Virus record (IMG/VR): IMGVR_UViG_3300045988_110420
Source: a virus
Length of the DNA stretch: 37,430 bases
Direction: 5' to 3' (one strand)
Of the stretch, positions 5,030 to 18,734 are shown piece by piece. The translations under genes and the position numbers were made by a program. The notes under the pieces are model-generated. The model was not told the DNA's origin. It did no database searches and worked only from the letters and a program-made list of their open reading frames with translations. The stretch's first letter is position 1. Each line of letters starts with the position of its first letter.

Positions 5030-5046
5030 GTGTCTAATTAAGACAC
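5030..5046. promoter_or_regulatory. Operator-like palindrome GTGTCT-N5-AGACAC (site 1)
   Basis: Perfect 6+5+6 palindrome overlapping the stop codon of the Cro-like gene. Same half-sites as 5275-5291. Confidence 0.6.
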
Positions 5047-5274: not shown

Positions 5275-5291
5275 GTGTCTGTTTTAGACAC
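5275..5291. promoter_or_regulatory. Operator-like palindrome GTGTCT-N5-AGACAC (site 2)
   Basis: Perfect palindrome between the -10 of the leftward promoter and the Cro-like RBS. Additional AGACAC half-sites at 5343-5348 and 5395-5400. Confidence 0.65.
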
Positions 5292-5295
5292 TTCT

Positions 5296-5324
5296 AAAAT
5301 AACACTTTATAATTTTATTGTCAA
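5296..5324 (-). promoter_or_regulatory. Leftward (lytic) promoter: TTGACA - 17 nt - TATTTT
   Basis: On the minus strand, -35 TTGACA is at 5324-5319 and -10 TATTTT at 5301-5296, preceded by TGT. Confidence 0.55.
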
Positions 5325-5363
5325 CGAATTTTTTGTATTTTTAAGACACTTTTTTTGATTTTT

Positions 5364-5392
5364 CTTGCATTTCCCTATTTTTTGTTGTAAAA
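5364..5392 (+). promoter_or_regulatory. Rightward (maintenance) promoter: TTGCAT - 17 nt - TAAAAT
   Basis: -35 at 5364-5369 and -10 at 5387-5392. An AGACAC half-site follows at 5395-5400, then the AAGGAGG RBS and the ATG at 5420. Confidence 0.6.
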
Positions 5393-5419
5393 TTTAGACA
5401 CTAAGGAGGTGCAACATAT

Positions 5420-6067
5420 ATGGATATGTCTGAACGTATCAAATCAAGACGTCTTTATTTAGGTCTTACCCAAGAAGAACTTGGTCTTAAACTCGGATTG
5501 CAAAAATCAGCAATCGCAAAATATGAAAATGGACGTGTAGAAAACATCAAACGTAGTGTTATTGCAAAAATGGCAGAAGTTTTGGAATGTTCTCCAGCTT
5601 ATCTCATGGGCTGGTCTGATGAAATCAACCCTGCTCCTGCTCTGGATTTATCCAAATTTGACAATATCTATCCCGTCAAATTAAAAAAATTTCCTTTGCT
5701 TGGCGAGATCGCCTGCGGCAAACCCATCTTTGCCAATGAGGACAGAGAAAGCTATATTTTAGCCGGCTCTGACATCCACGCCGACTTCTGCCTGCGTGCC
5801 AAAGGTGACAGCATGATAAATGCCCGTATTCTTGATGGTGACATCGTTTTCATCCGCAAGCAGGATATGGTGGACAATGGCGAAATCGCAGCTGTGGCTA
5901 TCGGTGATGATGTAACACTGAAACGTGTGGTCTATTACCCAGAACAGAACCTGCTGATCCTAAAGGCGGAAAATTCCAAATACCAGGATATGATTTATGC
6001 ACAGGATCAGCTGGATCAAGTGTATATTCTTGGTAAAGCCATTGCTTTTCAGTCAGATGTGAAATAA
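5420..6067 (+). CDS. CI/LexA-like repressor: XRE HTH + peptidase S24 autocleavage domain
   Basis: N-terminal LTQEELGLKLGLQKSAIAKYENG HTH. C-terminal GDSM (Ser nucleophile) and TLKRV (Lys) S24 motifs. 215 aa. Confidence 0.9.
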   Translation: MDMSERIKSRRLYLGLTQEELGLKLGLQKSAIAKYENGRVENIKRSVIAKMAEVLECSPAYLMGWSDEINPAPALDLSKFDNIYPVKLKKFPLLGEIACGKPIFANEDRESYILAGSDIHADFCLRAKGDSMINARILDGDIVFIRKQDMVDNGEIAAVAIGDDVTLKRVVYYPEQNLLILKAENSKYQDMIYAQDQLDQVYILGKAIAFQSDVK

Positions 6068-6087
6068 ATGTTCAAAGGAGAATTGTT

Positions 6088-6735
6088 ATGGGACTTTTCA
6101 AAAGTAAAAAACAGAAAATAATGGAGCAAATCCAAAAAGACATACATTCATTTACTTATCAATGCAGATATCATGAATACTTTGATCTTTCACTTGATTT
6201 TGTTGTTGTTCTTCCTGCCGTTCATATTAAAAACGATGATAGCCTAAAATTCATGAAGTATAATCGATATTGCACCATTGATTCTATTATTTATACGGTT
6301 TATCTCATATCATATATGAATTTTGCTTTAATTTCCTCTGCCAAAGAATTTTATGATGAAATCATGTATCGTATTCAATTTAATTTATCAATTATTTTGA
6401 AAATGAATTATGGTCTAAATGAAAAAATTTGTGTTGAGATGATTTCAAACCGTTTTGCTTTGTATGATAAAACGATTCAAAACATTGATAATAAAGATAT
6501 TGACAAAATTGTAAATACTTTATATGCGCAATTTATATGTGTTTTAACCACTACCATGAATGAGCAGAAATACATCCCTTTTTTTGTGGATTCAGCAATA
6601 TATATAGATGATATCTTTTCTCAAGCTGAAAAAGTAAAAGAAGTACTCAACACCTCTCAATTTATTATTAAGCTATGCTCTGGATCCACCAAATTAAATC
6701 TTGAAACTATTCGCGATTTTTATTGTGAAAGGTGA
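6088..6735 (+). CDS. Hypothetical protein, AT-rich moron gene 1 (215 aa)
   Basis: AAAGGAG RBS, 20 nt after the repressor stop. Strongly AT-rich codon usage. No motif recognised. Confidence 0.7.
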   Translation: MGLFKSKKQKIMEQIQKDIHSFTYQCRYHEYFDLSLDFVVVLPAVHIKNDDSLKFMKYNRYCTIDSIIYTVYLISYMNFALISSAKEFYDEIMYRIQFNLSIILKMNYGLNEKICVEMISNRFALYDKTIQNIDNKDIDKIVNTLYAQFICVLTTTMNEQKYIPFFVDSAIYIDDIFSQAEKVKEVLNTSQFIIKLCSGSTKLNLETIRDFYCER

Positions 6736-6739
6736 TTTT

Positions 6740-7162
6740 ATGAAATTAAATTCTAGGGCAATTTTAGTTACAACTTCTCTCATTGCTATCTCCAGCATTT
6801 TTTATAATGTTTTTCTTTTTGGACAAGTTTCAAATCTTCATAATGAATTTGATAGCGTAGAAAAACAATATAAAGAGCAATTAGAAATTTCAAATAATTA
6901 TAAACAAGAAATAAATAATCTTGAATTTAAGATGAATATAATAGATGATGAATATGAATTCTATCATAAATACGCAGTAATAACCACAACTACTGGTTAC
7001 CGTTATCATAAGTACGGTTGCTATCACTTAAATAATGATAATGGTTTTTATATCTTTAATATAGAAAATGCCACTTATCAAGGATATACCCCCTGTTTGG
7101 ACTGCCTTGGTTCTGGCTCTACCGAAGAAATAAAAGATAAACTGAAACGTGAACTTTATTAA
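6740..7162 (+). CDS. Membrane-anchored coiled-coil protein with C-terminal Cys/His zinc motif, AT-rich moron gene 2 (140 aa)
   Basis: GAAAGGTGA RBS, ATG 4 nt after the gene 1 stop. TM anchor RAILVTTSLIAISSIFYNVFLFG. C-terminal YRYHKYGCYHL...GYTPCLDC. Confidence 0.7.
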   Translation: MKLNSRAILVTTSLIAISSIFYNVFLFGQVSNLHNEFDSVEKQYKEQLEISNNYKQEINNLEFKMNIIDDEYEFYHKYAVITTTTGYRYHKYGCYHLNNDNGFYIFNIENATYQGYTPCLDCLGSGSTEEIKDKLKRELY

Positions 7163-7208
7163 AAATCTCAACTCAAAAATGGCGACCTTCCAAAAGGAGG
7201 TCGAAACT

Positions 7209-8255
7209 ATGGCAAAAGCAAAAAAACTGCCGTCCGGCAACTGGTCTGTGCAGGCTTATAGCCACACCGTCACCATAAACGGCAAACAAAAACGGGTGTA
7301 TGAGCGTTTTACCGCTCCCACCCGTAAAGAGGCTGAGTATCTGGCAGCAGAATTCCAAATGAATAAATCCCGCAAAAAATCTATGGAAACCATGACAGTT
7401 GCTCAAGCCATTGAAAGTTATATTGACAGCAAATCGAATATTCTTTCTCCATCTACGATCAAAAGCTATCGTAGCTTACAGAGAAATCATTACCATGACA
7501 TCGGTAAAATTCCTTTACAAAAACTTACCAGACAAATGGTTCAGCGTGAGTTTAATTTATATGCGGCTTCCCTTTCTCCAAAGACCTGCCGCAATCTTCA
7601 TGGTTTGCTTTCCGCAGCCCTGGAAATGTATCACCCTGATTTTCGTTTGAAAACAAATATGCCCAAAAAAACAAAGAACGAAATTCATATTCCCACAGAA
7701 GCAGAACTTCAGTGTCTTCTCTCCCGATCCCGTGGAACGCCTCTCTTTCTTCCTATCATTCTGGCGTTTTCCATGGGGCTTCGTCGGGGAGAAATTTGCG
7801 GTCTGCGCTGGAAAGATATTAACCTTGAAAAACATACTATTCATGTCCATACTTCACTGGTGCAGAATGAAAAAAAAGAATGGGTTGAAAAACCTCCAAA
7901 GACCTATGCAGGAAATCGCATCCTCGATATTCCTCCGTTTGTCTATGATGAACTAGAAAAACTATACCCGGAACAGAAGAATAGTCGTATCACAGATTTA
8001 ATGCCGGATAATATTACCAATATGTTTCCTGGTTTGCTTCGTCGCTCCGGTCTGCGCCATTTCCGCTTCCATGATTTACGCCATTATTACGCATCCATCA
8101 TGCTTGCCAATAATGTTCCCGATAAATATGCAATGAAACGTATGGGACATGCAACCAATTCCATGCTAAAGAATGTATATCAGCACATAATTACTCAAAA
8201 AGATCAAGAAGTTACCGTTGTTATGAACAACTTTTTTTCTGGACATTTCCAATAA
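7209..8255 (+). CDS. int: Tyrosine recombinase (phage integrase) with AP2-like N-terminal arm-binding domain
   Basis: AAAAGGAGG RBS before the ATG at 7209. GLRRGEICGLRW (Arg), HDLRHYYAS (His-x-x-Arg), GHATNSMLKNVYQH (Tyr). N-terminal KKLPSGNWSVQAY...NGKQKR...TRKEAE. Confidence 0.9.
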   Translation: MAKAKKLPSGNWSVQAYSHTVTINGKQKRVYERFTAPTRKEAEYLAAEFQMNKSRKKSMETMTVAQAIESYIDSKSNILSPSTIKSYRSLQRNHYHDIGKIPLQKLTRQMVQREFNLYAASLSPKTCRNLHGLLSAALEMYHPDFRLKTNMPKKTKNEIHIPTEAELQCLLSRSRGTPLFLPIILAFSMGLRRGEICGLRWKDINLEKHTIHVHTSLVQNEKKEWVEKPPKTYAGNRILDIPPFVYDELEKLYPEQKNSRITDLMPDNITNMFPGLLRRSGLRHFRFHDLRHYYASIMLANNVPDKYAMKRMGHATNSMLKNVYQHIITQKDQEVTVVMNNFFSGHFQ

Positions 8256-8275
8256 TGCAACACAAAATGCAACAC
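8255..8275 (+). repeat. Arm-type direct repeats ATGCAACAC x2 (12-bp phasing), P arm
   Basis: Copies at 8255-8263 and 8267-8275. Confidence 0.7.
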
Positions 8276-8276
8276 G

Positions 8277-8308
8277 AAAAAAAAGAAACCTTGAAAAATC
8301 AAGGTTTC
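8277..8308 (-). terminator. Rho-independent terminator following the tRNA-like fragment
   Basis: Minus strand: GAAACCTT-8nt-AAGGTTTC stem followed by T8. Confidence 0.7.
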
Positions 8309-8311
8309 CAG

Positions 8312-8338
8312 AGCGGAGACGGTGGGATTCGAACCCTC
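8312..8338 (-). other. tRNA 3' fragment (T-loop + 3' acceptor strand): probable attP core. Not a complete tRNA gene.
   Basis: The minus strand reads GAGGGTTCGAATCCCACCGTCTCCGCT (GGTTCGAATCC T-arm signature). No matching 5' acceptor strand (GGAGACG) occurs within about 100 nt upstream. Confidence 0.7.
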
Positions 8339-8472: not shown

Positions 8473-8505
8473 ATGCAACACAAGATGCAACACGCCATGC
8501 AACAC
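8473..8505 (+). repeat. Arm-type direct repeats ATGCAACAC x3 (12-bp phasing), P' arm
   Basis: Copies at 8473-8481, 8485-8493 and 8497-8505, in the same orientation as the P-arm copies. Confidence 0.7.
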
Positions 8506-8529
8506 GCCGCAAAAAATAGGTGTGTTTTT

Positions 8530-9204
8530 TTATTTATTTCTCTGCATAATTGCCATAGTCCGAAGCATATCATCACTCAGATGCAATGCATTGTTATCCG
8601 CATAACATCCGTTATTGATCTGCTCCTGTACCATTGGCTTTGCCCATGTAGGCACTTCCTGGATTGTTTCATAATACTTTGTCACTTCTTCCACCAGCCT
8701 TTCTTTGAAATCGTTCCACATCTGCACATTATCCACCATGGGTGCCGGGCATTTTTTCCCGGTTACATCAAAATGCCGGATCACCCGTTCCACAGGCACA
8801 CCATATTTTTTCATGAGCAGACGTACCAAGTCTGCGGCGTTCTGCAGCGTCTTCTCTGTGAAATCATATCTCCCGTTTTTCACTTCGTCGCAAAGCTCCA
8901 CGGAAATGGAATTGCTGTTGGTGCACTTCCCATAAAACTTTCCGCCGCCTGTCTGTCCGCAGTTTGGATATTTTTTCCCTCCTACACTCCATGCAACATA
9001 ATTGTCAGGTACGCTCTGTGTGATACTGTCTCCATCGACAAAATAATGGGCGGATGCGTTCACGACGTTATTGTGGAAGTAATTCCCGTTCCCTTCGTCG
9101 CTGTCCCCATCGTTTGCCGTATAGTGCATCACAATGTACTCGATCTTGCTTCTTTTTCCGCCATAATTTGCAGGGTTTGCCAGATTGACTTTAATCGGTA
9201 CCAT
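8530..9204 (-). CDS. Endolysin, N-acetylmuramoyl-L-alanine amidase (Amidase_2/PGRP type)
   Basis: IEYIVMHYTANDG...ASAHYFVDGDSITQSV...AWSVGG...NSNSISVELC...RVIRHFDVTGKKCP. AAGGAGGAGGG RBS before the ATG at 9204. Confidence 0.9.
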   Translation of the reverse strand: MVPIKVNLANPANYGGKRSKIEYIVMHYTANDGDSDEGNGNYFHNNVVNASAHYFVDGDSITQSVPDNYVAWSVGGKKYPNCGQTGGGKFYGKCTNSNSISVELCDEVKNGRYDFTEKTLQNAADLVRLLMKKYGVPVERVIRHFDVTGKKCPAPMVDNVQMWNDFKERLVEEVTKYYETIQEVPTWAKPMVQEQINNGCYADNNALHLSDDMLRTMAIMQRNK

Positions 9205-9388
9205 TGCCCTCCTCCTTTCCCTTCTGGTACTGGGTACCAAAATAGAAAGCAATCACAACACTGAAAATGGTCAGGAACTGTTCCCCACTGATATGCCCTG
9301 TAATAGACAGGTACGCAAATACCAATGTCAAAACCAGTGTCACAATACTTTTCACTGTCAAAAGATTCTGAATATTCACTTCTTTCAT
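9191..9388 (-). CDS. Holin (65 aa, two TM segments)
   Basis: IVTLVLTLVFAYLSI and FLTIFSVVIAFYFG, with a charged C-terminus. Overlaps the endolysin start. ATGA overlap with the upstream gene. Confidence 0.8.
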   Translation of the reverse strand: MKEVNIQNLLTVKSIVTLVLTLVFAYLSITGHISGEQFLTIFSVVIAFYFGTQYQKGKEEGNGTD

Positions 9389-9891
9389 TTTTTCACCGTC
9401 CAATCTTCTGCAAAAATATCTGTGATGGAAGGTACCCACATGGCATGGGAACCGCCCACAGTATTGATCTGCAAATACGGTTCGCATCTAAACAGGTCTC
9501 CTTCTTTCATCCCCCATGCTTCCGCTGTCTGCTTATTACATGGAATACCCTCTGGATATCCCTTCTGCATCACTACATACAGCCCTTTTCCGTTCCAGCC
9601 GGGTCTTGTCATAGGAATACCCTTTTTCAGCATATGCAGCGCGTGTCCAAAGCTCATTCTTGCCACACCGCCCAAAATCGGTGTATTCGTATCCACTGCC
9701 GGCGTGAAATCCACTGCTGCCATGTTATCCAGTGTATATTCCTTCATTTTTGTATCAAACAGGTCCAGCACTTCGCCTTCTTTCGTGTGCATCATGATAG
9801 TACCGTTTTCAAACGCCCAGTATCCGCCCCAATGGGGACGTTTTACCTTTCCTCCATTTTTCATAAATGCAAGTGCCTGTCTAAAATTCAT
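9385..9891 (-). CDS. Tandem DUF2829 (Tad2-like) domain protein (168 aa)
   Basis: Two repeats of the M.F..AL..(M/L)K.G...R..W.G signature. The second ends in WVPSITDIFAEDWTV. GAGGAGG RBS before the ATG at 9891. Confidence 0.7.
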   Translation of the reverse strand: MNFRQALAFMKNGGKVKRPHWGGYWAFENGTIMMHTKEGEVLDLFDTKMKEYTLDNMAAVDFTPAVDTNTPILGGVARMSFGHALHMLKKGIPMTRPGWNGKGLYVVMQKGYPEGIPCNKQTAEAWGMKEGDLFRCEPYLQINTVGGSHAMWVPSITDIFAEDWTVKK

Positions 9892-9902
9892 GTTCATCCT
9901 CC

Positions 9903-10223
9903 TCACTGCAATTCAAACAATTTTTTCCCATACTGCACCGCACATTCATGCTCGATCTTGCATCCTCTCGCCTCTGACCATCCTTTTGCAAAACATACGA
10001 TGTCCGCTTTCGACATCATCGTAAGAGAACGTCCCAAGCACCATAAAGCCATATCAGCGTTTTTTGGTGGATCTTCAGCAATATAACTGTCGATCACTGC
10101 CACTTCTTCCTTCAGAATTTCTTTTGCGCTGATAACCGCATTTTCTCTTTCTTTTCTGATTTCTTCTTCTGTTTTTCCTTTCATTGGCTGCGAAATAAAT
10201 AACTTCTTCTTTTCCATTCCCAT
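9903..10223 (-). CDS. DUF4406-like (nucleoside 2-deoxyribosyltransferase-like) protein (106 aa)
   Basis: KLFISQPMKGKTEEEI...LWCLGRSLTMMSKADIVCFAKGWSEARGCKIEHECAVQYG matches the DUF4406 pattern as I remember it. Confidence 0.65.
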   Translation of the reverse strand: MGMEKKKLFISQPMKGKTEEEIRKERENAVISAKEILKEEVAVIDSYIAEDPPKNADMALWCLGRSLTMMSKADIVCFAKGWSEARGCKIEHECAVQYGKKLFELQ

Positions 10224-10982: not shown

Positions 10983-13900
10983 TTACTGTGGCGCCTTTTC
11001 CAGTGTTTCTCTTTTTCCGCCCAATCTGTAAAACTCGTCTGCCGCTCTCTGCATCCGCTGACTGTCTCCGGCTTCCTTGGCTTTCCAATATTCCGATTTC
11101 AGTCGGCTCCTCATACTGCTTCTAATATCCTTGTCCTCTTTCCCCGCAGCATTCAGAATAGACCACATCTTTTCATAGTCTGCCATGTTGCCGTTCATAT
11201 AGGCATTGAACAGCAAAGCATAGTCCGCACTTTCTACTTCTCCTTCCTCCTTCCAGTAGTCCTTTGTAATGGTTTCAAATGTTTCTTCATCCTCCGCAGG
11301 CGGTTTCGTCAGGCTTTCCACAGCACTTTCAATGTTTGCCATGAAATACCCCTTCTTTGCCAACGCTTCCACGTTTCTGGTGTAATCATCCACCCTGCCT
11401 TCGTTGTATGCTTTTGCCGCTTCCATGGCTTCCGGTTCTTCCTTGATGGCTTTCACCTGTTCTGTTTTGATTTTATTGTCAATCTTTTCATTGGAAATGC
11501 CGCCGTTGACCATGTCGTTGTAAATCCGTGTGGCGATCTGTTCGTTTCCGCTCATCTTTGCTTCCAGCATCATTTTCACATACATGTTAATATTCTTTTC
11601 ACTGCCCACATCGTAGGTCAGCTTCTGGTTTTCATACTGTGCATCCAGTCCCAGTGTGTAATTGACGATGGTGTTTTTGATTGCCAGAATATCCCGTTTT
11701 GCGGAATTGATGGGGATACCCGTTGCCTTTGACAGGCTCCCGGCAGCGTCCATCAAAACAGCGTTCAATGTATAGTTGCTTTCTCCTGACATGTACCGCA
11801 TGAGATTTTTCCCGGATTTTACCAGATCATTGAGCCAACTAATATCCGTCCGCTGTACGGTATATCCCTGGATCACAGAGAAAATATCCCTCATGTACGG
11901 GATATATCCCAACGGGTTGAAACTGTTCCCCAGGTTTGAACCAATGGCAGCCAGAATATAGTCGCTGACACTTTCCGCTTCCGTAAAATCCCCTCGAAAC
12001 GCCTGCAGCCATTTTTCCAGCAGTGTTTCATCGTCGTCATCGTCCCTGAGCATATCCACCAGCCCAGCCGCAGCCGCTACACATACACCATTTGCAACCA
12101 GCGTCATAAATGTTCTGACAACCTTCTTCCGGTTCTCCGGCGTGTTGTCTTTGATCACTGCCACCATACTGTTTCGCATCATGTTGTATGTCTTTGTTGG
12201 TTCACTCATGAATGATGTTGCCATCTGTGAAAACAGGCTCTGGCTCCGCATCATCTGATTTCTATGCAGAATACTGTCCACCACCTGTGTTCCGTCGATG
12301 ATTTCCGAAAACCGCTTCCCAACGGTCTCATAATACCGGTTGCCTGTCAGTTCTGGATGTTTTTTCTTCACTTCCAGCTCTGCCGCTCTCCAAATGCGTC
12401 CCCATGTCAGCTTGTCCATGACACCTGCGGCAATCATGGATTTTTCCAGAAAACTTTCGTAGAAATTTTGCCCGACGAGCAATTCTTTCATGGTGCGCCC
12501 TACGTTCATTTCATAATTTCCCCATTCTTTCCATTGAGCGATTGGCGCATACTCATATACCTTTTCAAAGTCTGTCTTGCTTGGTACCAGAGCCCCCATC
12601 AAATACCCTACGCCGATTTCATCCGCCGCTCTCAGGTAACTCACTGGCTGCTGGATGATGACACGCAGGTTTGCGCCTACGCTGGCAATCTTCATATTCC
12701 GCAGGAAAATCCGTGGCAGCCGTTCCACATCTTCTTTTACCGCCGGATTGTTCAGCCGTTCCATCAAATCCCGTACATATTTGTCGCCAGCCGGACCCAT
12801 GACCCGCTGCATGGTTTCTTTGACACTTCGGTTTTCGCCGAATTTCTTTCCGTCTACCACACGCACCATTTCTCGGTAGTTCATAAATTTGTTCAGGTCT
12901 GAAAGCGCCGGCACAAAAGCGTTATAACTGCTCATCTGGTCTATGTGTCTGACATAAGCATCGAAAATGTTTTCCAGAATGATGGGGTTTTTCGCTTCTC
13001 TGTTTGTCTGCTTGGTAATTCCCATTGTTTGCAGGGTACTGTTCTTTTCCCCTCTTGCGCCGTACATGGTATTGATGTAGTTTTCATCGGTCACAATGGG
13101 GAAATAGTTGGTTTCCGTAAATTTTTTGTACCCCAGCATATTCATGGTGACTTCGTTTCCCCAGCTTGCCACGCTTTCCAAATATCCTTGGATCTCCAAA
13201 GCCGCTTTTTTCTGTTCCTCTGTCAGATTGCTCATAAGTTTTGTCACGTCTGCCGCTGTCACTTCCACCGGCTCCGTATTTTTGACGATCTTTCTCTGTC
13301 CTCTGACTTTATGCACCACAGGTTCCCCTTTGATGCCGCCGCCAAAGATATGCCCTCTTGCCTGTGTTCTGCGCATCAAGCAGTACAGGCTCATGATCTG
13401 CGCATCTGTCAGCAGGATTTTTCCGCCGCTCAAAGTGTATTCCTTCGGTTCCATTTCTCCCCATTCACGGATTTTCTTTTTGTCGACAGTCTTCTGCATA
13501 AATTCCGACGCTTCTTTCACATGGAGAATTTTTCTGTCAAATCCCTCTCGCAGCCCTCTGTAAATGGTGTCGTGTACGGTTTTCCCCATTTCCTTGAAGA
13601 AACTTTCTGTGTCTAACATTTGCACATTCATCATGTCAGAAAGTACCCGCAGCCTGCTGTCTGGATTCTTTGTTTTTTTGTTCTCCACATCCTCCATGTA
13701 TGCGTTCCCAATAGTGGATATTTTTTCCCCGTTTTTGATGGAAACCATTCTGTTTGCGTTTCTGACCAAATGGGATACGCTTCGGATCACCACAGATAGC
13801 TGTCTCATTTCTGTGGGACCCAGCTCGGATACCTTCACGCCATCACCTACACGATCCGCCAGACTTTCCAGCATCGCCTGTACGTTTTCATCTTCTTCCG

Positions 13901-16900
13901 CATAAAGCATGGTGTTTTCCGCAGTCATGGCTTGATAGTCTTTTATCATCCGCCGAATGTCTGTTGGCATGATATTCAGTTCTGGATCATCGAATTTCAT
14001 TTTTTCCAGGAAATTCCGCACGCCTTCCATCATGCTTTCCTGCACATGGTATTGGTCTGTGGGACGTTCCACCCATCTTTTCAGCAGCGCCGCTTCTTTC
14101 TCGATGATGTTTTTGTACTTGGCATATTCTGCCCGGTCCCGTCTTTCCTTGTCCCTTGCTTTCAATTTTTCGTAAATGGCACGACGCTGTTTCACAAGTG
14201 CCCTTCCTTCGTGCATTGCCGCAGCCAGTCTGGCATCTTCCAGTTTCTTTTTCTGGTCTTCCTTTGCCTGCTGTAATTTTTCATCGTATCTTTCCTTTAG
14301 ATCTTTCCGCAGATTTTCCCTTGCGGCTCTTGCTCTGGCTTTTTCTTTTTCCAGTTTCTTTTCGTATTTGTCTGCAAATGTTGGCTTCTGCAGCTCGATG
14401 TCAAAATACATATCCCACAGGTCATAAGCCGCATCCATGGCGTATTCGTCCAGATTCATGCCGTAAGGGTTTTCATAGATGGGCTGTAAACTTTCCACCA
14501 CTTCCAGAATATCCATTACGGCATCCACCTGTGTGCTCACACGCTCCACATCCAAAAGTTCCGGGTATTTTTCTGCCATTTCCTGATAAAACACATCTGC
14601 ATAAATGCCGCCCTGTCTGCTCAGGTTGATTTTTCCGAAATTTTCCTTTCTGACAGTGTTGTATCCGCCATAATAGTCAAATTCCTCCGCCATATCCTCT
14701 GTCACTTTGATCTTTGTCTTGCGTACATCGTTCTTGAAGTCCTTGTATGCGTCGGAAAGGTCTGTGTTCAAAACCTTGCTTTCGGATAATGCGTCATACG
14801 CCAGCTTCTGCAATGCGCCCATTACCTTCTGGAAATCCACTCTGTCCCCGGCATTTGCCACGTAATCCGCCAAAGCAACAAATTTTTCTGTGAAATCATC
14901 CACATCATATTCGCTGTCGTGTGCTTTCAGCCATTTTCTAACGGCTTTCTTTGCGCTCACAGGATCATGTACGGCGTATTTCGTAATTTCAAACTGTCTG
15001 CGCAGGGCTTCATTTGCTTCTTTCAGTGCTTCATTTTCTTCCACCAAAGCGTTATAGGCTTCTTCACGGATAGAAAACCGCACACCTTCCACACGATTGA
15101 GCTGTTGCACTCTGCTTTCTTTGCTTCCCGCTTCATATTCCAGCACTTGTGGAATTTTGTTTTCCACTGCCTTTCGCAGATCCACCTCAAGATCATCAGG
15201 TACTACCGCCGCTGCCACTTCCGCAAATTCCACCACACGTTCCGGCTTTGCCTCAAAGAAATCTGTTGGCATTTCCTTAATTTCTTCCAAAACTCTCGCT
15301 GTCTGTTCCGCCAGTTCCATGGAAATGGGATATCCTGCTTTTTTAAGATTCTGCTGGATCTGCTGGGCACTTGGTACTCCCTTTACTTCCTCCGCCATGT
15401 TCTGAATCTGTTCACCAATATCCTCCATTTCATAAACCTCATTGATGCCAGTTTGGCTGCCTGTATCATAAATTTCTTCCAACACACCAAAAAGCCGCTG
15501 GTTCATTTCTTCTCGCAGTGCTTCGAATTCTTCCTTGGGCAAATGCTCCAGTTTTTCTCTTGCTTCCTTGATCTCACCTAAGGAAACAAATCTGTTTGCC
15601 ATGGCTGCCCGCATGGTGTTTTCCCCCATAAACCCTTGGGCATTTTTTCCGCTTTTGGTCTGTGCCTGCATAGTCCGCACCAGTTCTTCCAGAAACGCTC
15701 TTGTTTTGCCGTATTCCTCCTTATCCAGCATAGGAAACATAGGTGTCCAAGCGTCTGCGTCATACACCTTGTTTCTTTCGTCTGCCGGATCAATGGTGTC
15801 TTTCCGAAACACCAGAGAAATTTCCCCAAACTCCTCCGCCGTGGCATCGCTTTTTGTAATGGCAATACTCGGCATGGGAATCCCCTGCAAGTCTAAGAGT
15901 TTGCGCAGTTTCTCACCATTCAGGTTATGAACAGCAATCAGGTCTTTCGTTTCTTCTATTGGTTCTTTCAAGGAAAATCTATTTTTTGATTCTCTTTCTT
16001 TTCCATTGTCTTCTTTTTTTGACTGTGTTATATTTTCCATAAGAGGCAGATCGTTTTTATTTTTATAGGAGAGACGAACTTCGGTTCCAGGGACTTTGGG
16101 ATCTGCCTCTAAATTTATGTCTGAAAAAACTTGTTTTCTATTTTTTATGCTTGTCTTTTCCCCTCTCTGCATTTCCCCGGCTTTCTTCATTTCCTCCGCC
16201 AGCATTTTTGCCAGTTTCTCTGTTTCCTTGATGTCCTTTCTGATTTCCTCCCCGAATGAGGAAAAACGCCCGTCATTGACCAGCCCTTTCAATGTTTCCA
16301 GCAGATTTTCCAGAAATTCTTTGATTTTTTCCAGTACAGAAGGATTTGTCTGATGCATTTCTGTCACAAACGCCCGCAGGCTCTTTTCGTCCCCTGCAAT
16401 TTCTGCGAAAGCATCCGCTGTCATTTCTTCCAGGATCACATCATAGCCCGCTTCCTGTCCGGCTTCTCGATACGCCTCCCCGTATCTTTTTTCATAGCTC
16501 TTGATATATGATTCCGTGTCCATGCCTTTCATGGCAGCCGCCGCAGAAAATACCGCCTGCCGCATCCGGTCATATCCTTCCGGGTTCGCTTCTCTCAAAT
16601 AGTGGGTTGCTTCATGGAATAAGGTTCCCGCAAACTGTCCACTGTTCAGCGCAATGGTAACACGCCCTTTGTTGTTTTCGTAATATCCACGTCTGTCCTG
16701 TGGCAGTTCATCTACCAGCACCACTTCCAACTCTGCCACTCGGCTCACCAACTCCGCAAGACTTCTCTGTTCCTTTGTCACAGCATCCGTTTCCAGAAAC
16801 ACGCCGGCAGTCTGTCCCATTTTTCCTGTGCCTTTCATCCTTGCTTCCAGGTCTGTTTTCCGGTCGTTCACCCCTGCCAGATATGCCGCGCTCAAAAGCC

Positions 16901-18734
16901 CCTTGTCTGCCACAATGGTTTCCGCCGTCTGTTTGATGTCGCTTTCTTTTACCCCCGTAAGTCCCGCTGTGTAATATGTCTGAAAAGCAGGAATAAAAGA
17001 TGTGCCCCCTCTCCGTTCCGCTTCTTCGTTGACCAACTTTTGCCCTTCGGTGTAGTAGTACTTTTCTCCAAAATCCCGCAGGGCTTTGTTTTGCTGCGTC
17101 ACTTCCGGCACATTTTCTCTGTTTACCATCACATTTCCCTGTTCTGGCAACATATTTTCTCTGTTTGATAACACATTTCCTTGTTCTGGCAACATATTTT
17201 CTCTTTCCGGTAACACATTCCCTTGTTCTGGCAACATATTTTCTCTTTCCGGTAACACATTCCCCTGTTCCTTCAGCATCGTTTCTGGCTGTGTCCCTTC
17301 CGGCACTTCTGCCTTTCCTTGGCTTCTCATGGCATTTGTTCTCTGTGTCACTTCGTTTCCCGCATTTGTCATAGCGTCCCTTGCTGTTTCCACCGGATTT
17401 CCAGCCATTTCCAAAGTGTTTCTTCCGGTCATACGGCTCAGTCCGCCAATACCTCCGGCAATGACACCGCCGCTGGCAGCACCCACAGCCCCACTATATC
17501 CAACCTGCTTGATACCCTCCATGAGTGCTGTTTTCACAGCTTCGCTTTCCGTTGCACCGTTTTCCATGGCGGTCTGTGCAATCTGTTTCATCTGGCTGTT
17601 ATCTCCCATAATGAGCGTATCCGCCAGAAGGTTTGCAATCTCAGAAGTGGCTTCTTCTGCACCTTCAGACGCTGCCTGCGGCAAAAGACTTTTCAAAAAT
17701 GTGGAAACTGCACCTTTGTTTTTTGTGATTTTTCCCAGTTCAAATAAACGATCATACCCCAATTTCTCTGTGATGGCTTCTGCCGCACCTCCTGCCAGAC
17801 CATACATGACTGCTTCGTCTGTTGTGCCGCCTCTTTCCAGTGCTTCCTTTGTGTTTCCTGCTGCCGCACCTGCCGCCATGACATATGGTGTCAAAGGTCC
17901 CAGTGTCGCTGCCTGTGTGCCCCAGTCGAACACCGCAAGCCCAGCCTCTTTGGCAAATTTCTCTGCACCGGTACTGTCTCCCATCAGTCCTTCTGCCAAT
18001 CCTTCATTCATGTTCACACCGCCCATGAGTGGGTGATAAGGGTCAACGGGCTTGTCCGCTCCTTCCATTGCCGCCGCGTAAACTGCCCCGGCTGCCTGTC
18101 CAATGTTCCCAACTGCACGGGCATACAGCGCCGCCGCTGTGCTTTCCTCCGCCAGCTTCTTTGCATCCTCTCTTTTCTGCATGGCTGCTCTCTGGTTCAC
18201 ATCCATTTCCAGTGCATCCAGATATTCCTGTGCCTTTTCCACCTGTCCTCTGTCACGGTAATACTTATACACTGCCGCTTCCCGGTCCGTCATGTAATCA
18301 TATTTTGTCCGTACTTCATTACGTTTCAGTGTTGGATTGACAGTACCGCCGCCCCCGGTATCCGGCAGGATCAGCTTACTCACATCCCCCTTTGGCGGGA
18401 TCACTGCCGGCAGTTTTGCCCCATTTTCCAAAACCTTTGCTTTGTTTCTGCTTTCCGTCAATGCCTGACTGTATGTTTTTGTAGTATTTGTTTTCCGTTT
18501 CAGCACAGGATTTTCCCGTACATTCCCAAAAGAAATGATGGGGTTTACGGTCCCCCCTGCCACCTTTGGTGCCAGATCAGATGCCTTCACTCTCTTGTAG
18601 TTCTCCCAAACTGTGTTGTAACTGTCATTTCCATTGTCCAGTCTTACCCCGGTTTTTTCATCGTATCTTGTAGTATCAGCACCTTTTGCCCTTGTTTCTT
18701 CTGCTTTTTTTCTTAAAAAATCACTTGCTCCCAC
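10983..18734 (-). CDS. Giant polyvalent virion-associated protein (2,583 aa) with HExxH zincin-like module
   Basis: Single uninterrupted ORF. GTG start 7 nt after GGAGGG. Gly/Ala-rich hydrophobic N-terminal third, 14-aa tandem repeats, LFHEATHYL motif (codons at 16602-16616), and RFS(L/I)(K/R)E module boundaries. Confidence 0.9.
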   Translation of the reverse strand: MGASDFLRKKAEETRAKGADTTRYDEKTGVRLDNGNDSYNTVWENYKRVKASDLAPKVAGGTVNPIISFGNVRENPVLKRKTNTTKTYSQALTESRNKAKVLENGAKLPAVIPPKGDVSKLILPDTGGGGTVNPTLKRNEVRTKYDYMTDREAAVYKYYRDRGQVEKAQEYLDALEMDVNQRAAMQKREDAKKLAEESTAAALYARAVGNIGQAAGAVYAAAMEGADKPVDPYHPLMGGVNMNEGLAEGLMGDSTGAEKFAKEAGLAVFDWGTQAATLGPLTPYVMAAGAAAGNTKEALERGGTTDEAVMYGLAGGAAEAITEKLGYDRLFELGKITKNKGAVSTFLKSLLPQAASEGAEEATSEIANLLADTLIMGDNSQMKQIAQTAMENGATESEAVKTALMEGIKQVGYSGAVGAASGGVIAGGIGGLSRMTGRNTLEMAGNPVETARDAMTNAGNEVTQRTNAMRSQGKAEVPEGTQPETMLKEQGNVLPERENMLPEQGNVLPERENMLPEQGNVLSNRENMLPEQGNVMVNRENVPEVTQQNKALRDFGEKYYYTEGQKLVNEEAERRGGTSFIPAFQTYYTAGLTGVKESDIKQTAETIVADKGLLSAAYLAGVNDRKTDLEARMKGTGKMGQTAGVFLETDAVTKEQRSLAELVSRVAELEVVLVDELPQDRRGYYENNKGRVTIALNSGQFAGTLFHEATHYLREANPEGYDRMRQAVFSAAAAMKGMDTESYIKSYEKRYGEAYREAGQEAGYDVILEEMTADAFAEIAGDEKSLRAFVTEMHQTNPSVLEKIKEFLENLLETLKGLVNDGRFSSFGEEIRKDIKETEKLAKMLAEEMKKAGEMQRGEKTSIKNRKQVFSDINLEADPKVPGTEVRLSYKNKNDLPLMENITQSKKEDNGKERESKNRFSLKEPIEETKDLIAVHNLNGEKLRKLLDLQGIPMPSIAITKSDATAEEFGEISLVFRKDTIDPADERNKVYDADAWTPMFPMLDKEEYGKTRAFLEELVRTMQAQTKSGKNAQGFMGENTMRAAMANRFVSLGEIKEAREKLEHLPKEEFEALREEMNQRLFGVLEEIYDTGSQTGINEVYEMEDIGEQIQNMAEEVKGVPSAQQIQQNLKKAGYPISMELAEQTARVLEEIKEMPTDFFEAKPERVVEFAEVAAAVVPDDLEVDLRKAVENKIPQVLEYEAGSKESRVQQLNRVEGVRFSIREEAYNALVEENEALKEANEALRRQFEITKYAVHDPVSAKKAVRKWLKAHDSEYDVDDFTEKFVALADYVANAGDRVDFQKVMGALQKLAYDALSESKVLNTDLSDAYKDFKNDVRKTKIKVTEDMAEEFDYYGGYNTVRKENFGKINLSRQGGIYADVFYQEMAEKYPELLDVERVSTQVDAVMDILEVVESLQPIYENPYGMNLDEYAMDAAYDLWDMYFDIELQKPTFADKYEKKLEKEKARARAARENLRKDLKERYDEKLQQAKEDQKKKLEDARLAAAMHEGRALVKQRRAIYEKLKARDKERRDRAEYAKYKNIIEKEAALLKRWVERPTDQYHVQESMMEGVRNFLEKMKFDDPELNIMPTDIRRMIKDYQAMTAENTMLYAEEDENVQAMLESLADRVGDGVKVSELGPTEMRQLSVVIRSVSHLVRNANRMVSIKNGEKISTIGNAYMEDVENKKTKNPDSRLRVLSDMMNVQMLDTESFFKEMGKTVHDTIYRGLREGFDRKILHVKEASEFMQKTVDKKKIREWGEMEPKEYTLSGGKILLTDAQIMSLYCLMRRTQARGHIFGGGIKGEPVVHKVRGQRKIVKNTEPVEVTAADVTKLMSNLTEEQKKAALEIQGYLESVASWGNEVTMNMLGYKKFTETNYFPIVTDENYINTMYGARGEKNSTLQTMGITKQTNREAKNPIILENIFDAYVRHIDQMSSYNAFVPALSDLNKFMNYREMVRVVDGKKFGENRSVKETMQRVMGPAGDKYVRDLMERLNNPAVKEDVERLPRIFLRNMKIASVGANLRVIIQQPVSYLRAADEIGVGYLMGALVPSKTDFEKVYEYAPIAQWKEWGNYEMNVGRTMKELLVGQNFYESFLEKSMIAAGVMDKLTWGRIWRAAELEVKKKHPELTGNRYYETVGKRFSEIIDGTQVVDSILHRNQMMRSQSLFSQMATSFMSEPTKTYNMMRNSMVAVIKDNTPENRKKVVRTFMTLVANGVCVAAAAGLVDMLRDDDDDETLLEKWLQAFRGDFTEAESVSDYILAAIGSNLGNSFNPLGYIPYMRDIFSVIQGYTVQRTDISWLNDLVKSGKNLMRYMSGESNYTLNAVLMDAAGSLSKATGIPINSAKRDILAIKNTIVNYTLGLDAQYENQKLTYDVGSEKNINMYVKMMLEAKMSGNEQIATRIYNDMVNGGISNEKIDNKIKTEQVKAIKEEPEAMEAAKAYNEGRVDDYTRNVEALAKKGYFMANIESAVESLTKPPAEDEETFETITKDYWKEEGEVESADYALLFNAYMNGNMADYEKMWSILNAAGKEDKDIRSSMRSRLKSEYWKAKEAGDSQRMQRAADEFYRLGGKRETLEKAPQ
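17109..17282 (-). repeat. In-frame 42-bp tandem repeat x about 4 (ENMLPEQGNVLPER units) inside the giant gene
   Basis: The DNA and the protein (KEQGNVLPERENMLPEQGNVLPERENMLPEQGNVLSNRENMLPEQGNVMVNREN) show the same periodicity. Confidence 0.9.

What the first reader, a model, noticed from the sequence alone, without database searches (positions are those of the whole stretch)
6088..7162. AT-rich two-gene cassette between repressor and integrase: candidate undescribed prophage-expressed exclusion/defence module
Seen: two plus-strand ORFs (215 aa at 6088-6735; 140 aa at 6740-7162) sit between the S24 repressor gene and int. Each has its own RBS. The first starts 20 nt after the repressor stop and the two are 4 nt apart, so they read as one operon with the repressor from the TTGCAT-17-TAAAAT promoter. 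By eye the block is much more A+T-rich (roughly 30% G+C) than the flanking genes and the rest of the genome (roughly 45-50%), which looks like a recently acquired moron.

Protein 1 has no motif I can place. Protein 2 has three parts: a K/R-then-hydrophobic N-terminal anchor (RAILVTTSLIAISSIFYNVFLFG), a coiled-coil-like middle (EFDSVEKQYKEQLEISNNYKQEINNLEFKMN), and a C-terminal TGYRYHKYGCYHL...YQGYTPCLDC motif. That last motif resembles the small Cys/His zinc module of Ada-type metal-binding domains.

Established: genes in this position are transcribed in lysogens and are commonly superinfection-exclusion, abortive-infection or other defence genes.

Inference: an uncharacterised two-component, membrane-associated exclusion or defence system.
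Basis: partly seen in the sequence, partly recalled or inferred. Interest (0 to 1): 0.78.

Follow-up and report, generated by a model that had tools for sequence, protein, structure and literature searches.

The report
Prophage membrane zinc-knob gene pair
Two AT-rich genes between a gut phage's repressor and integrase encode an orphan cytoplasmic protein and a membrane-anchored protein predicted to display a small Ada-like zinc domain outside the cell; the two recur side by side or fused in distant phages, so they form a real but uncharacterised module, most likely used to keep other phages out.

Summary
P1 (6088-6735, 215 aa) and P2 (6740-7162, 140 aa) are intact genes under purifying selection, at 27.6% G+C against 46% for the window. 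They fill a slot whose borders are exactly the repressor stop and the integrase leader.

The pair first looked unconserved: close relatives carry P1 alone, or P2 with an unrelated gene. Deeper searches reversed that. A 23%-identical P1 relative is again followed by a P2 relative in another phage lineage. In further lineages a P1-like domain and the whole of P2 form one polypeptide. In an integrative element the two domains sit in adjacent genes.

P2 is a predicted N-in/C-out single-pass protein: membrane helix, coiled-coil stalk, and a C-terminal His-Cys3 domain with an Ada-type zinc fold. That domain is predicted to be extracytoplasmic and lacks Ada's methyl-acceptor cysteine.

The same stalk-and-knob module is widespread in lysogeny modules of gut Clostridia prophages. 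There it is fused to ImmA-like M78 peptidase, Mrr nuclease or other cytoplasmic domains. P1 belongs to a tiny orphan family with no detectable fold.

No characterised homologue exists, and PADLOC, PHROGs and GenBank phages give nothing. Function is inferred: superinfection exclusion or defence at the envelope is most likely, with transmembrane signalling into the lysogeny switch as the main rival.

The parts
5285..5313 (+). Best sigma-70-like promoter match upstream of the repressor (TAGACA-17-TATAAT, 11/12). It overlaps an operator-like palindrome.
   Evidence: Consensus match only, not evidence of function.
5365..5393 (+).
   Evidence: Read directly. It matches 8/12 and falls below the threshold of the scan.
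5420..6067 (+). Repressor: HTH_3 plus Peptidase_S24 (LexA/CI-type, self-cleaving).
   Evidence: S24 2.1e-23, HTH_3 7e-12. Sister phages are 98-100% identical.
6075..6080 (+). AAGGAG ribosome-binding site of P1, 7 nt before the ATG.
   Evidence: It is missing in L001.
6088..6735 (+). P1: 215-aa protein with no predicted membrane helix, so presumably cytoplasmic. It has a conserved basic N-terminus (MGLFKSKKQK) and belongs to an orphan family.
   Evidence: - No Pfam, PHROG, PADLOC, NCBIfam or PDB match.
- Only 6 representatives at E<=1e-3 among 1.84 billion.
- dN/dS 0.17.
- Maximum hydropathy is below the TM threshold.
- The AF2 model is unusable (pLDDT 41.5).
6729..6734 (+). AAGGTG ribosome-binding site of P2. 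It overlaps the P1 stop codon (6733-6735).
6740..7162 (+). P2: 140-aa bitopic membrane protein, predicted N-in/C-out.
   Evidence: dN/dS 0.41-0.44.
6761..6817 (+). P2 transmembrane helix (residues 8-26). K2 and R6 precede it and acidic residues follow.
   Evidence: KD19 1.93; K+R 2 before and 0 after.
6821..6946 (+). P2 coiled-coil-like stalk (about residues 28-69), part of one long helix (residues 4-78) in the model.
   Evidence: helix 4-78, pLDDT above 90 over residues 11-60. Weak FtsL, Rz and BRE1 coiled-coil matches only.
6947..7108 (+). P2 C-terminal Ada-like zinc knob (residues 70-123). Invariant ligand set is H90, C94, C119, C122 (H-x3-C-x24-C-x2-C).
   Evidence: - Invariant columns in A6.
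- Foldseek BFVD top hit 'Metal binding domain of Ada', E 8.4e-07.
- PDB fold and profile searches put N-Ada first.
- Relatives pass or approach the PF02805 threshold.
7209..8255 (+). Tyrosine integrase; it has its own AGGAGG site.
   Evidence: Phage_integrase 1.7e-19. The 348-aa gene is called identically in related loci.
8313..8336 (.). attP core: the 3'-terminal 24 nt of tRNA-Ser(CGA). It shows the window is an unintegrated phage genome.

Best explanation
P1 and P2 form a two-part accessory module of the phage's lysogeny region. I propose that it acts at the cell envelope to protect the lysogen from superinfection.

**Supported by sequence comparison and prediction (not experiment)**
- The two genes fill a hyper-variable slot directly behind the repressor and ahead of the integrase.
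- No plus-strand terminator intervenes, and the two genes are set up for translational coupling.
- P2 is a single-pass N-in/C-out membrane protein. A long helical (coiled-coil-like) stalk carries a tyrosine-rich His-Cys3 domain of the Ada metal-binding fold on the outer face of the membrane.
- P1 has no predicted membrane helix, so it is probably cytoplasmic. Its family is found next to, or fused in front of, this stalk-and-knob module in at least four diverged lineages.

**Inferred**
- The module is transcribed with the repressor in lysogens.
- P1 docks at the inner face of the membrane, possibly through its conserved basic N-terminus (MGLFKSKKQK), and works with P2.
- The external knob binds a conserved ligand at the site where incoming tails deliver DNA. 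That ligand could be a host envelope component used for genome entry, or a tail-tip or tape-measure part.
- The result is a block on genome entry (Sie2009/Ltp logic), or a report of the attack to the cytoplasmic partner.
For: **Position and mobility**
- The rep | cassette | int breakpoints are exact.
- Phages with 98-100% identical repressor and integrase carry P1+P2, P1 alone, P2+X or a fused gene.

**Linkage of P1 and P2**
- P0014 is 23% identical to P1. It is followed by a 170-aa TM, coiled-coil and knob protein (blastp against P2 1e-21). This lies between a different HTH repressor and an integrase.
- Single ORFs of 494 and 413 aa hold a P1-like domain followed by the whole of P2. hmmsearch gives 19.6 bits against a maximum of 7.8 in 1000 shuffles. 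blastp with P0013 gives 1.5e-7. hhalign gives E 6e-5. The P2 part is 58-62% identical.
- In L024 a DUF805 protein ending in the same module sits directly upstream of the P1-like protein P0011.

**Both families are very rare**
- P1: 6 representatives among 1.84 billion.
- P2-type: a handful of clusters among 5.8 billion.

**Topology and fold**
- K/R residues precede every module helix and acidic residues follow it.
- Ada fold support.

**Family context**
- In 98 further loci the module sits after an HTH repressor and before a tyrosine or serine integrase in most clusters with enough flank.

**Selection:** dN/dS 0.17 and 0.41-0.44.

**Precedents for function in this slot**
- Sie2009, and the two-component SieF7/2AB (PMC7693887).
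- Ltp (PMC3952083).
- RexAB and CarolAnn gp43/44, which are co-expressed with the repressor (PMC6426606).
Against: - There are no expression or phenotype data.
- There is no homology to any characterised Sie, Abi or defence protein.
- The knob is the most conserved part of P2 and the stalk the most variable. This is not the pattern expected if the knob were in an arms race with phage tail proteins.
- Related modules are fused to enzymes of the lysogeny switch (ImmA-like M78) or to a nuclease. That fits signalling or abortive infection at least as well as passive blocking.
- P1 occurs without P2 (L001, L017, L018, L025). P2 occurs without P1 in most lineages.
- P2 has only about 7 cytoplasmic residues, so a direct P1-P2 contact surface is not obvious.
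Confidence: 0.5

Rival explanations
1. Outside-in signalling into the prophage's own lysis-lysogeny switch. The external zinc knob senses a surface or envelope cue. The cytoplasmic partner (P1 here, an ImmA-like protease in paralogous modules) then modulates repressor stability or induction.
For: - Many diverged modules have the order HTH repressor, M78 peptidase fused to TM and knob, integrase. That is the ImmR-ImmA-Int arrangement, with the protease carrying the ectodomain. The M78 part matches CapP/ImmA-type models.
- P1-like genes also sit directly after ImmA-like genes (L025, L029).
- A conserved knob combined with interchangeable cytoplasmic domains is the pattern of a receptor.
Against: - The window's repressor is a self-cleaving S24 type that needs no ImmA.
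- P1 has no protease or DNA-binding signature.
- Stand-alone P2 with a 7-residue cytoplasmic tail (L002-type, L054) has nothing to signal with.
- The Mrr nuclease fusion does not fit switch control.
Confidence: 0.2
2. RexAB-like abortive infection. P1 senses a phage product in the cytoplasm and triggers P2 oligomers to damage the membrane. In fused paralogues, a nuclease or protease is triggered instead.
For: - The layout matches rexAB and CarolAnn 43/44: a cytoplasmic protein plus a membrane protein behind the repressor.
- There are effector-like fusions: Mrr_cat and M78.
- Cassettes turn over rapidly.
Against: - P2 has one membrane helix and a conserved ectodomain, unlike the 4-TM RexB or gp43.
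- P1 has no DUF4747 or any other match.
- The ectodomain would have no role in this scheme.
Confidence: 0.12
3. Lysogenic-conversion function for the host: an envelope protein for adhesion, cell-wall or metal binding, or extracellular DNA binding, unrelated to phages.
For: The same knob occurs in ordinary secreted proteins and lipoproteins outside prophage contexts: the L035 tandem-knob lipoprotein and the L047 DUF5648 protein.
Against: The TM, stalk and knob architecture sits between repressor and recombinase in most clusters that have enough flank, across tyrosine- and serine-integrase phages. It is swapped between near-identical phages.
Confidence: 0.1
4. Two unrelated morons that merely share a recombination hot spot, with no functional link between P1 and P2.
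For: - P1 alone: L001, L017, L018, L025.
- P2 alone or with the unrelated X protein: L002-L011, L054, L063.
- About 34 of 38 knob-ORF clusters show no P1-like link.
Against: Two extremely rare families are adjacent or fused in four independently diverged settings, in conserved order.
Confidence: 0.08

Closest known systems
Lactococcal/streptococcal superinfection-exclusion proteins Sie2009 and Ltp (TP-J34)
   Same: - They are encoded in the lysogeny module between repressor and integrase and expressed in the lysogen.
- They are small proteins held at the outer face of the cytoplasmic membrane.
- They block DNA injection (PMC7693887, PMC3952083).
   Different: - There is no sequence or profile similarity.
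- Ltp is a lipoprotein, whereas P2 has an N-terminal membrane helix, a coiled-coil stalk and a zinc knob.
- P2 has a dedicated cytoplasmic partner family.
Two-component SieF7/2AB (= TP901-1 ORF2/ORF3)
   Same: - It is a two-gene system in the same slot.
- It combines a membrane-associated protein with a protein that has a zinc-metalloprotease-like motif; the two act together (PMC7693887).
- Paralogues of P2 join an M78 metallopeptidase domain and the membrane module in one protein.
   Different: - P1 has no HExxH motif and no similarity to M78.
- Homology to ORF2/ORF3 was not tested directly. The tblastn of P1 and P2 against GenBank phages found nothing.
Lambda RexA/RexB and CarolAnn gp44/gp43 (Sbash gp30/gp31)
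   Same: A cytoplasmic protein plus a membrane protein, co-expressed with the repressor and defending against heterotypic phages (PMC6426606).
   Different: - RexB and gp43 have four membrane helices and no ectodomain.
- RexA and gp44 carry DUF4747, whereas P1 matches nothing.
- The gene order and the proposed site of action (outside the cell) differ.
N-terminal zinc domain of E. coli Ada (PF02805; PDB 1ADN, 1U8B, 1ZGW, 1WPK)
   Same: - The small fold and ligand spacing match: C/H-x3-C ... C-x2-C after a G-[YF]-x-P-C motif.
- N-Ada is the top match in both fold and profile searches.
   Different: - The first ligand is His rather than the methyl-acceptor Cys38.
- The domain is predicted to be extracytoplasmic, sits at the C-terminus of a membrane protein and has no AraC or AGT partner domains.
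- P2 itself scores 12.6 bits against the 23-bit threshold.
ImmR/ImmA (ICEBs1, phi105-type) anti-repressor protease modules
   Same: Same genomic slot. Many P2 paralogues are ImmA-like M78 peptidases that carry the TM and knob module.
   Different: The window has an S24 repressor and no M78 domain. Known ImmA proteins are soluble.

Membership tests
Ada_Zn_binding (PF02805) / N-Ada zinc domain | Sequence match above Pfam's gathering threshold (23 bits) | tested here: not met
   - The P2 C-terminal domain scores 12.6 bits, E 0.14.
- Relatives reached with the domain HMM do better: the L035 lipoprotein scores 23.7 bits and L047 scores 20.9 bits.
- Membership is therefore at superfamily level, by transitivity.
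Ada_Zn_binding (PF02805) / N-Ada zinc domain | Ada-type fold of the metal-binding domain | tested here: met
   - Foldseek BFVD: the top 5 hits are annotated as Ada metal-binding or methyl-phosphotriester repair domain; best E 8.4e-07, probability 1.00.
- Foldseek PDB: the top 3 are N-Ada, E 0.3-3.7.
- PDB profile search: the top 4 are N-Ada, E 0.16-0.35.
- Domain pLDDT is only 62-75.
Ada_Zn_binding (PF02805) / N-Ada zinc domain | Four cysteine ligands, including the nucleophilic methyl-acceptor Cys38 | tested here: not met
   The invariant set is H-x3-C-x24-C-x2-C, and the first position is always His. Metal binding itself was not tested.
Ada_Zn_binding (PF02805) / N-Ada zinc domain | Cytoplasmic, DNA-facing location | tested here: not met
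   The positive-inside rule places the domain outside the membrane in every architecture examined. This is prediction only.
Sie2009 / Ltp-type superinfection exclusion | Gene lies in the lysogeny module between repressor and integrase, co-oriented with the repressor | tested here: met
Sie2009 / Ltp-type superinfection exclusion | Small protein anchored at the cytoplasmic membrane | tested here: met
   P2 has one N-terminal membrane helix. P1 has none.
Sie2009 / Ltp-type superinfection exclusion | Sequence homology to a characterised Sie protein | tested here: not met
   No PHROG, PADLOC or GenBank-phage match.
Sie2009 / Ltp-type superinfection exclusion | Blocks DNA injection of superinfecting phages | not testable with these tools
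   Needs EOP, adsorption and DNA-entry assays.
RexAB-like two-gene exclusion | Cytoplasmic and membrane proteins co-transcribed with the repressor | tested here: inconclusive
   The layout and the absence of a terminator fit. Transcription was not measured.
RexAB-like two-gene exclusion | RexA-type DUF4747 domain and a 4-TM RexB-type channel | tested here: not met
   No Pfam hit for P1. P2 has a single membrane helix.
P1-like + TM/coiled-coil/zinc-knob module (defined here) | A P1-family domain adjacent to or fused with the knob module in independent lineages | tested here: met
   - Window and L049.
- L026-28 and L074.
- L019-21, L048, L050-53, L055 (fusions).
- L024.

The most novel reading that the evidence does not exclude
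The stalk-and-knob module is a prophage-encoded single-pass receptor. An extracytoplasmic Ada-fold zinc domain detects an event at the cell surface, such as an incoming phage tail, its DNA, or an envelope cue. It passes the signal across the membrane to interchangeable cytoplasmic outputs:
- an ImmA-like protease, giving repressor cleavage and prophage escape;
- an Mrr nuclease, giving abortive infection;
- the orphan P1 domain, whose output is unknown.

The window's P1-P2 pair would be the split form of such a receptor-effector. This would be a new class of outside-in sensing by temperate phages of gut Clostridia.
Probability: 0.25. Interest if true: 0.85.

Novelty: new variant of a known kind. 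Interest (0 to 1): 0.62.

Why it matters
Genes expressed from the lysogeny module decide which phages can infect a lysogen, and they are a proven source of new defence mechanisms. This work gives three things.

- It defines a testable two-protein module with clear domain boundaries, a predicted topology and candidate metal ligands (H90, C94, C119, C122).
- It shows that the membrane stalk-and-knob part is a common, undescribed feature of lysogeny modules in gut Clostridia prophages.
- It shows that evolution has repeatedly attached this ectodomain to the induction protease ImmA and to a nuclease.

If the ectodomain senses or blocks incoming phages, this is a new route of phage-phage competition in the human gut. 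If it feeds into ImmA, it is a new input to prophage induction. Both readings can be tested with cloned genes.

Tried and rejected
**Searches that found nothing**
- P1 and P2 against Pfam, PHROGs, PADLOC and NCBIfam gave nothing meaningful. P2 gave only coiled-coil noise (BRE1, FtsL, Rz-like spanin).
- PDB sequence and profile searches for P1 gave nothing. PHROGs on all P1-family members gave nothing.
- The AF2 model of P1 from a 2-sequence alignment was unusable (pLDDT 41.5), so no fold search was run on it.
- tblastn of both proteins against 50,697 GenBank phage records gave no match. blastn of the region gave only weak hits to uncultured faecal phages.
- Viral-contig scans with P0014 and P0010 found nothing. 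Two alignment queries were too diverse for pattern building.

**Abandoned conclusion**
- My first conclusion, that the pair is not conserved, was dropped after the fusions and the P0014 pair were found.

**Homology hypotheses rejected**
- X (the 212-aa partner of P2 in L002-type phages) as a P1 relative.
- The N-terminal domain of the L056-type 337-aa protein as P1-like.
- The L075 250-aa protein, which begins MGFFKKEK, as P1-like.
- P1 as a degenerate M78 peptidase.

**Functional readings rejected**
- P2 as a spanin or lysis protein. The lysis genes (holin-like 9191-9487, amidase 8530-9252) lie elsewhere on the other strand, and P2 sits with the repressor.

**Unresolved**
- The host could not be identified.
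Full report
**1. The observation**

The two ORFs are exactly as described: P1 at 6088-6735 (215 aa) and P2 at 6740-7162 (140 aa), both on the plus strand. They lie between an HTH + Peptidase_S24 repressor (5420-6067) and a tyrosine integrase (7209-8255).

The spacings of 20 nt and 4 nt are right. P1 has AAGGAG 7 nt upstream of its start. P2 has AAGGTG overlapping the P1 stop codon.

G+C is 0.276 for P1 and 0.277 for P2. This compares with 0.42 and 0.41 for the flanking genes and 0.46 for the window.

Both are real genes. dN/dS against orthologues is 0.17 for P1 and 0.41-0.44 for P2, compared with 0.33 for the repressor and 0.17 for the integrase.

A better one lies at 5285-5313. No plus-strand terminator-like site separates the repressor from the integrase end. 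Co-transcription is plausible but untested.

The window carries attP. Its positions 8313-8336 are the last 24 nt of tRNA-Ser(CGA), next to which integrated relatives sit. It is therefore a free phage genome rather than an integrated prophage.

**2. A mobile slot**

Sister phages have repressor and integrase 98-100% identical to the window's, but their slot contents differ.
- P1-type gene alone: L001, L017, L018.
- P2-type gene followed by an unrelated membrane-anchored 212-aa protein X: L002-L011.
- A single long ORF: L019-L021.
- Decayed remnants: L012-L015.

DNA identity breaks precisely at the repressor stop (6068) and at 7163/7164, just before the conserved integrase leader. The 'recently exchanged moron' reading is therefore sound. 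All cassettes in this lineage are about 27-32% G+C.

**3. Are P1 and P2 a pair?**

The arrangements above at first suggested they are not. Four further results reversed that view.

(a) An exhaustive HMMER search of 1.84 billion representatives found only five other P1 relatives. One is P0014, 23% identical. It lies between a different HTH repressor and an integrase in another phage lineage (L026-28, later L074). It is immediately followed by a 170-aa protein with a membrane helix, a coiled coil and the same C-terminal Cys/His domain as P2. blastp of P2 against this protein gives 1e-21.

(b) The long ORFs of L019/L020 (494 aa) and L021 (413 aa) end in the whole of P2 (58-62% identity). Upstream they contain a domain homologous to the P1 family.
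- hmmsearch with the P1 profile gives 19.6 bits, against a maximum of 7.8 in 1000 shuffles.
- blastp gives 1.5e-7 with P0013 and 1.2e-6 with P0010.
- hhalign gives E 6e-5 and probability 65%.

More such fusions turned up in metagenomes: L048, L050-53, L055.

(c) In an integrative element (L024), a DUF805 membrane protein ending in the same helix, coiled coil and knob lies directly upstream of P0011. P0011 is a P1-like domain fused to a zinc ribbon, a membrane helix and an ectodomain.

(d) An independent contig (L049) has the window's own arrangement.

Both families are extremely rare, so four diverged associations, including 'Rosetta-stone' fusions, argue strongly for a functional link. The link is not obligatory, however.
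- P1-type genes occur alone: L001/17/18, and L025 after an ImmA-like gene.
- Only 4 lineages among the 38 clusters of knob-bearing ORFs involve a P1-like domain.

P2's module is the core, and P1 is a specialised accessory.

**4. What P2 is**

The AF2 model (mean pLDDT 77) is one long helix (residues 4-78) followed by a small beta-rich domain (80-123) and a short C-terminal helix.

The N-terminal helix is a membrane span. Lys and Arg precede it and acidic residues follow it. The same holds for every relative examined, whatever the number of upstream helices. The C-terminal domain is therefore predicted to be extracytoplasmic.

Across eight diverse members the invariant residues include H90, C94, C119 and C122 in P2 numbering, giving H-x3-C-x24-C-x2-C.

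Several lines identify the fold as the Ada metal-binding domain.
- Foldseek against BFVD puts a 164-aa phage protein annotated 'Metal binding domain of Ada' first (E 8.4e-07, 134 aligned columns). Four more Ada-annotated proteins follow.
- Foldseek against the PDB puts three N-Ada structures first, though weakly (E 0.3-3.7).
- A profile of the domain searched against PDB sequences puts four N-Ada entries first, aligned on the G-[FY]-x-P-C-x-x-C stretch (E 0.16-0.35).
- Pfam PF02805 is sub-threshold on P2 itself (12.6 bits). It reaches 23.7 bits and 20.9 bits on relatives found with the domain HMM.

The methyl-acceptor cysteine is replaced by histidine. The domain is predicted to sit outside the cell.

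**5. The wider family**

One scan of 185,579 species genomes and one scan of metagenomes returned 18 and 80 loci with this domain. They are almost all human- or animal-gut Clostridia.

In most clusters with enough flanking sequence, the knob-bearing ORF follows an HTH repressor and precedes a tyrosine or serine integrase. In a high-GC phage group it lies beside an IS30-like transposase and a small XRE gene.

The membrane helix and C-terminal knob are constant. The segment between them is a coiled-coil stalk in P2-type members but a GY-repeat or low-complexity linker in others. The cytoplasmic N-terminus varies:
- almost nothing (P2, 7 residues);
- a 60-aa tail;
- a zinc ribbon;
- 3-TM bundles;
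- the P1-like domain;
- DUF805;
- an unknown 220-aa domain;
- a Mrr_cat restriction-endonuclease domain (Pfam 3.6e-08);
- in many diverged loci, an ImmA/IrrE-type Peptidase_M78 domain in the classic ImmR-ImmA-Int position.

None of these proteins, apart from the generic M78 part, matches PADLOC.

**6. What P1 is**

P1 has no predicted membrane helix. It is predicted to be helical, but at low confidence.

The family shares a basic N-terminus (MG-[LF]-F-K-S-K) and a few invariant residues: D18, C26, D37, K57, D65. In the fusions it lies on the cytoplasmic side, between the N-terminal helices and the helix that leads to the stalk.

No fold or function could be assigned.

**7. Mechanism**

The anatomy, topology, linkage and genomic position rest on sequence comparison and prediction; none has been tested experimentally. 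Everything functional is inference. Published systems in this slot set the precedent.
- Sie2009 is a small membrane protein that blocks DNA injection.
- SieF7/2AB is a two-component system: a membrane protein plus a protein with a metalloprotease motif (PMC7693887).
- Ltp is a surface lipoprotein that targets the tape-measure protein (PMC3952083).
- RexAB and CarolAnn gp43/44 pair a cytoplasmic with a membrane protein, co-expressed with the repressor (PMC6426606).

I rank the readings as follows.
- An envelope-level anti-superinfection module (about 0.5). The stalk presents the zinc knob where incoming tails deliver DNA, and P1 assists from inside.
- Outside-in signalling to the lysogeny switch (about 0.2). 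The ImmA fusions prompt this reading.
- RexAB-like abortive infection (about 0.12).
- A host-benefit envelope function (about 0.1).
- No functional link between the two genes (about 0.08).

One observation argues against a simple arms-race blocker. The knob is the most conserved part of P2 and the stalk the most variable. This pattern suggests a conserved ligand.

**8. Novelty**

No member of either family has been characterised. Databases hold only automatic 'Metal binding domain of Ada' labels on some virome proteins.

The kind of system, a lysogen-expressed accessory module behind the repressor, is well known. The parts and their architecture are new. The recurrent coupling of an extracytoplasmic Ada-fold domain to ImmA-like proteases, a nuclease and the P1 domain is, as far as these searches show, undescribed.

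Noticed in passing
window 8255-8336 and 8473-8510: attP region. The last 24 nt of tRNA-Ser(CGA) lie at 8313-8336. ATGCAACAC repeats lie on both sides and are likely integrase arm-binding sites. Integrated relatives sit next to an intact tRNA-Ser followed by gyrB/topoisomerase IV-like host genes.
   Followed up: partly
window 5030-5046, 5275-5291, 5340-5350, 5392-5402: GTGTCT-N5-AGACAC palindromes and half-sites in the repressor/cro intergenic region. They overlap divergent promoter-like sites and are probably the operators of the genetic switch.
   Followed up: no
window 9385-9906 (-): This 173-aa ORF is 92% identical to an L002 gene whose product carries a precomputed Pfam PF11195 (Tad2-like) hit. 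It is a candidate anti-Thoeris counter-defence gene beside the lysis genes.
   Followed up: partly
window 10983-18734 (-): Giant 2583-aa ORF. Its counterparts in related loci (2722-3461 aa) carry PF18814 (PBECR5).
   Followed up: no
L037-L041, L045, L046, L115, L117-L126: ImmA/IrrE-type M78 peptidases in the repressor-protease-integrase position carry a C-terminal membrane helix and the extracytoplasmic Ada-like zinc knob. This is a membrane-tethered anti-repressor protease with an ectodomain.
   Followed up: partly
L066:924-2522: A 533-aa protein with an N-terminal Mrr_cat restriction-endonuclease domain (Pfam 3.6e-08), membrane helices, a coiled coil and the same zinc knob. It lies between an S24 repressor and a serine integrase.
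   Followed up: partly
L022, L023, L033, L034, L079-L113: In a high-GC phage group the knob protein (3-4 membrane helices plus G-Y-D/E repeats) always lies beside an IS30-like DDE transposase and a small XRE gene. The transposase may serve as the phage's integrase.
   Followed up: no
L002:8461-9099 and equivalents: X is a 212-aa orphan protein with an N-terminal membrane helix and a cytoplasmic body. It follows P2-type or fused genes in many sister phages and has no match in any library.
   Followed up: partly
L012-L015: Decayed prophage remnant next to tRNA-Ser. A reverse-transcriptase gene (group II intron-like) lies upstream, P2 is truncated to its knob, and the integrase is frameshifted.
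   Followed up: no
L001:8600-8668, L017/L018:6600-6668, against window 7140-7172: P1-only loci end with (G)TGAACTTTA...TTATTAAAAATCTCAA, which resembles the last codons of P2 and its junction with the integrase leader. They may be deletion derivatives of a P1-P2 cassette. L001 also lacks the AAGGAG in front of P1.
   Followed up: partly
L075:2760-3479, L045:6193-6864: Other genes adjacent to knob genes begin with MGFFKKEK or MGLLDFFKKK. These resemble the conserved P1 N-terminus, although the rest of each protein is unrelated. The motif may be a shared short membrane- or partner-targeting signal.
   Followed up: partly
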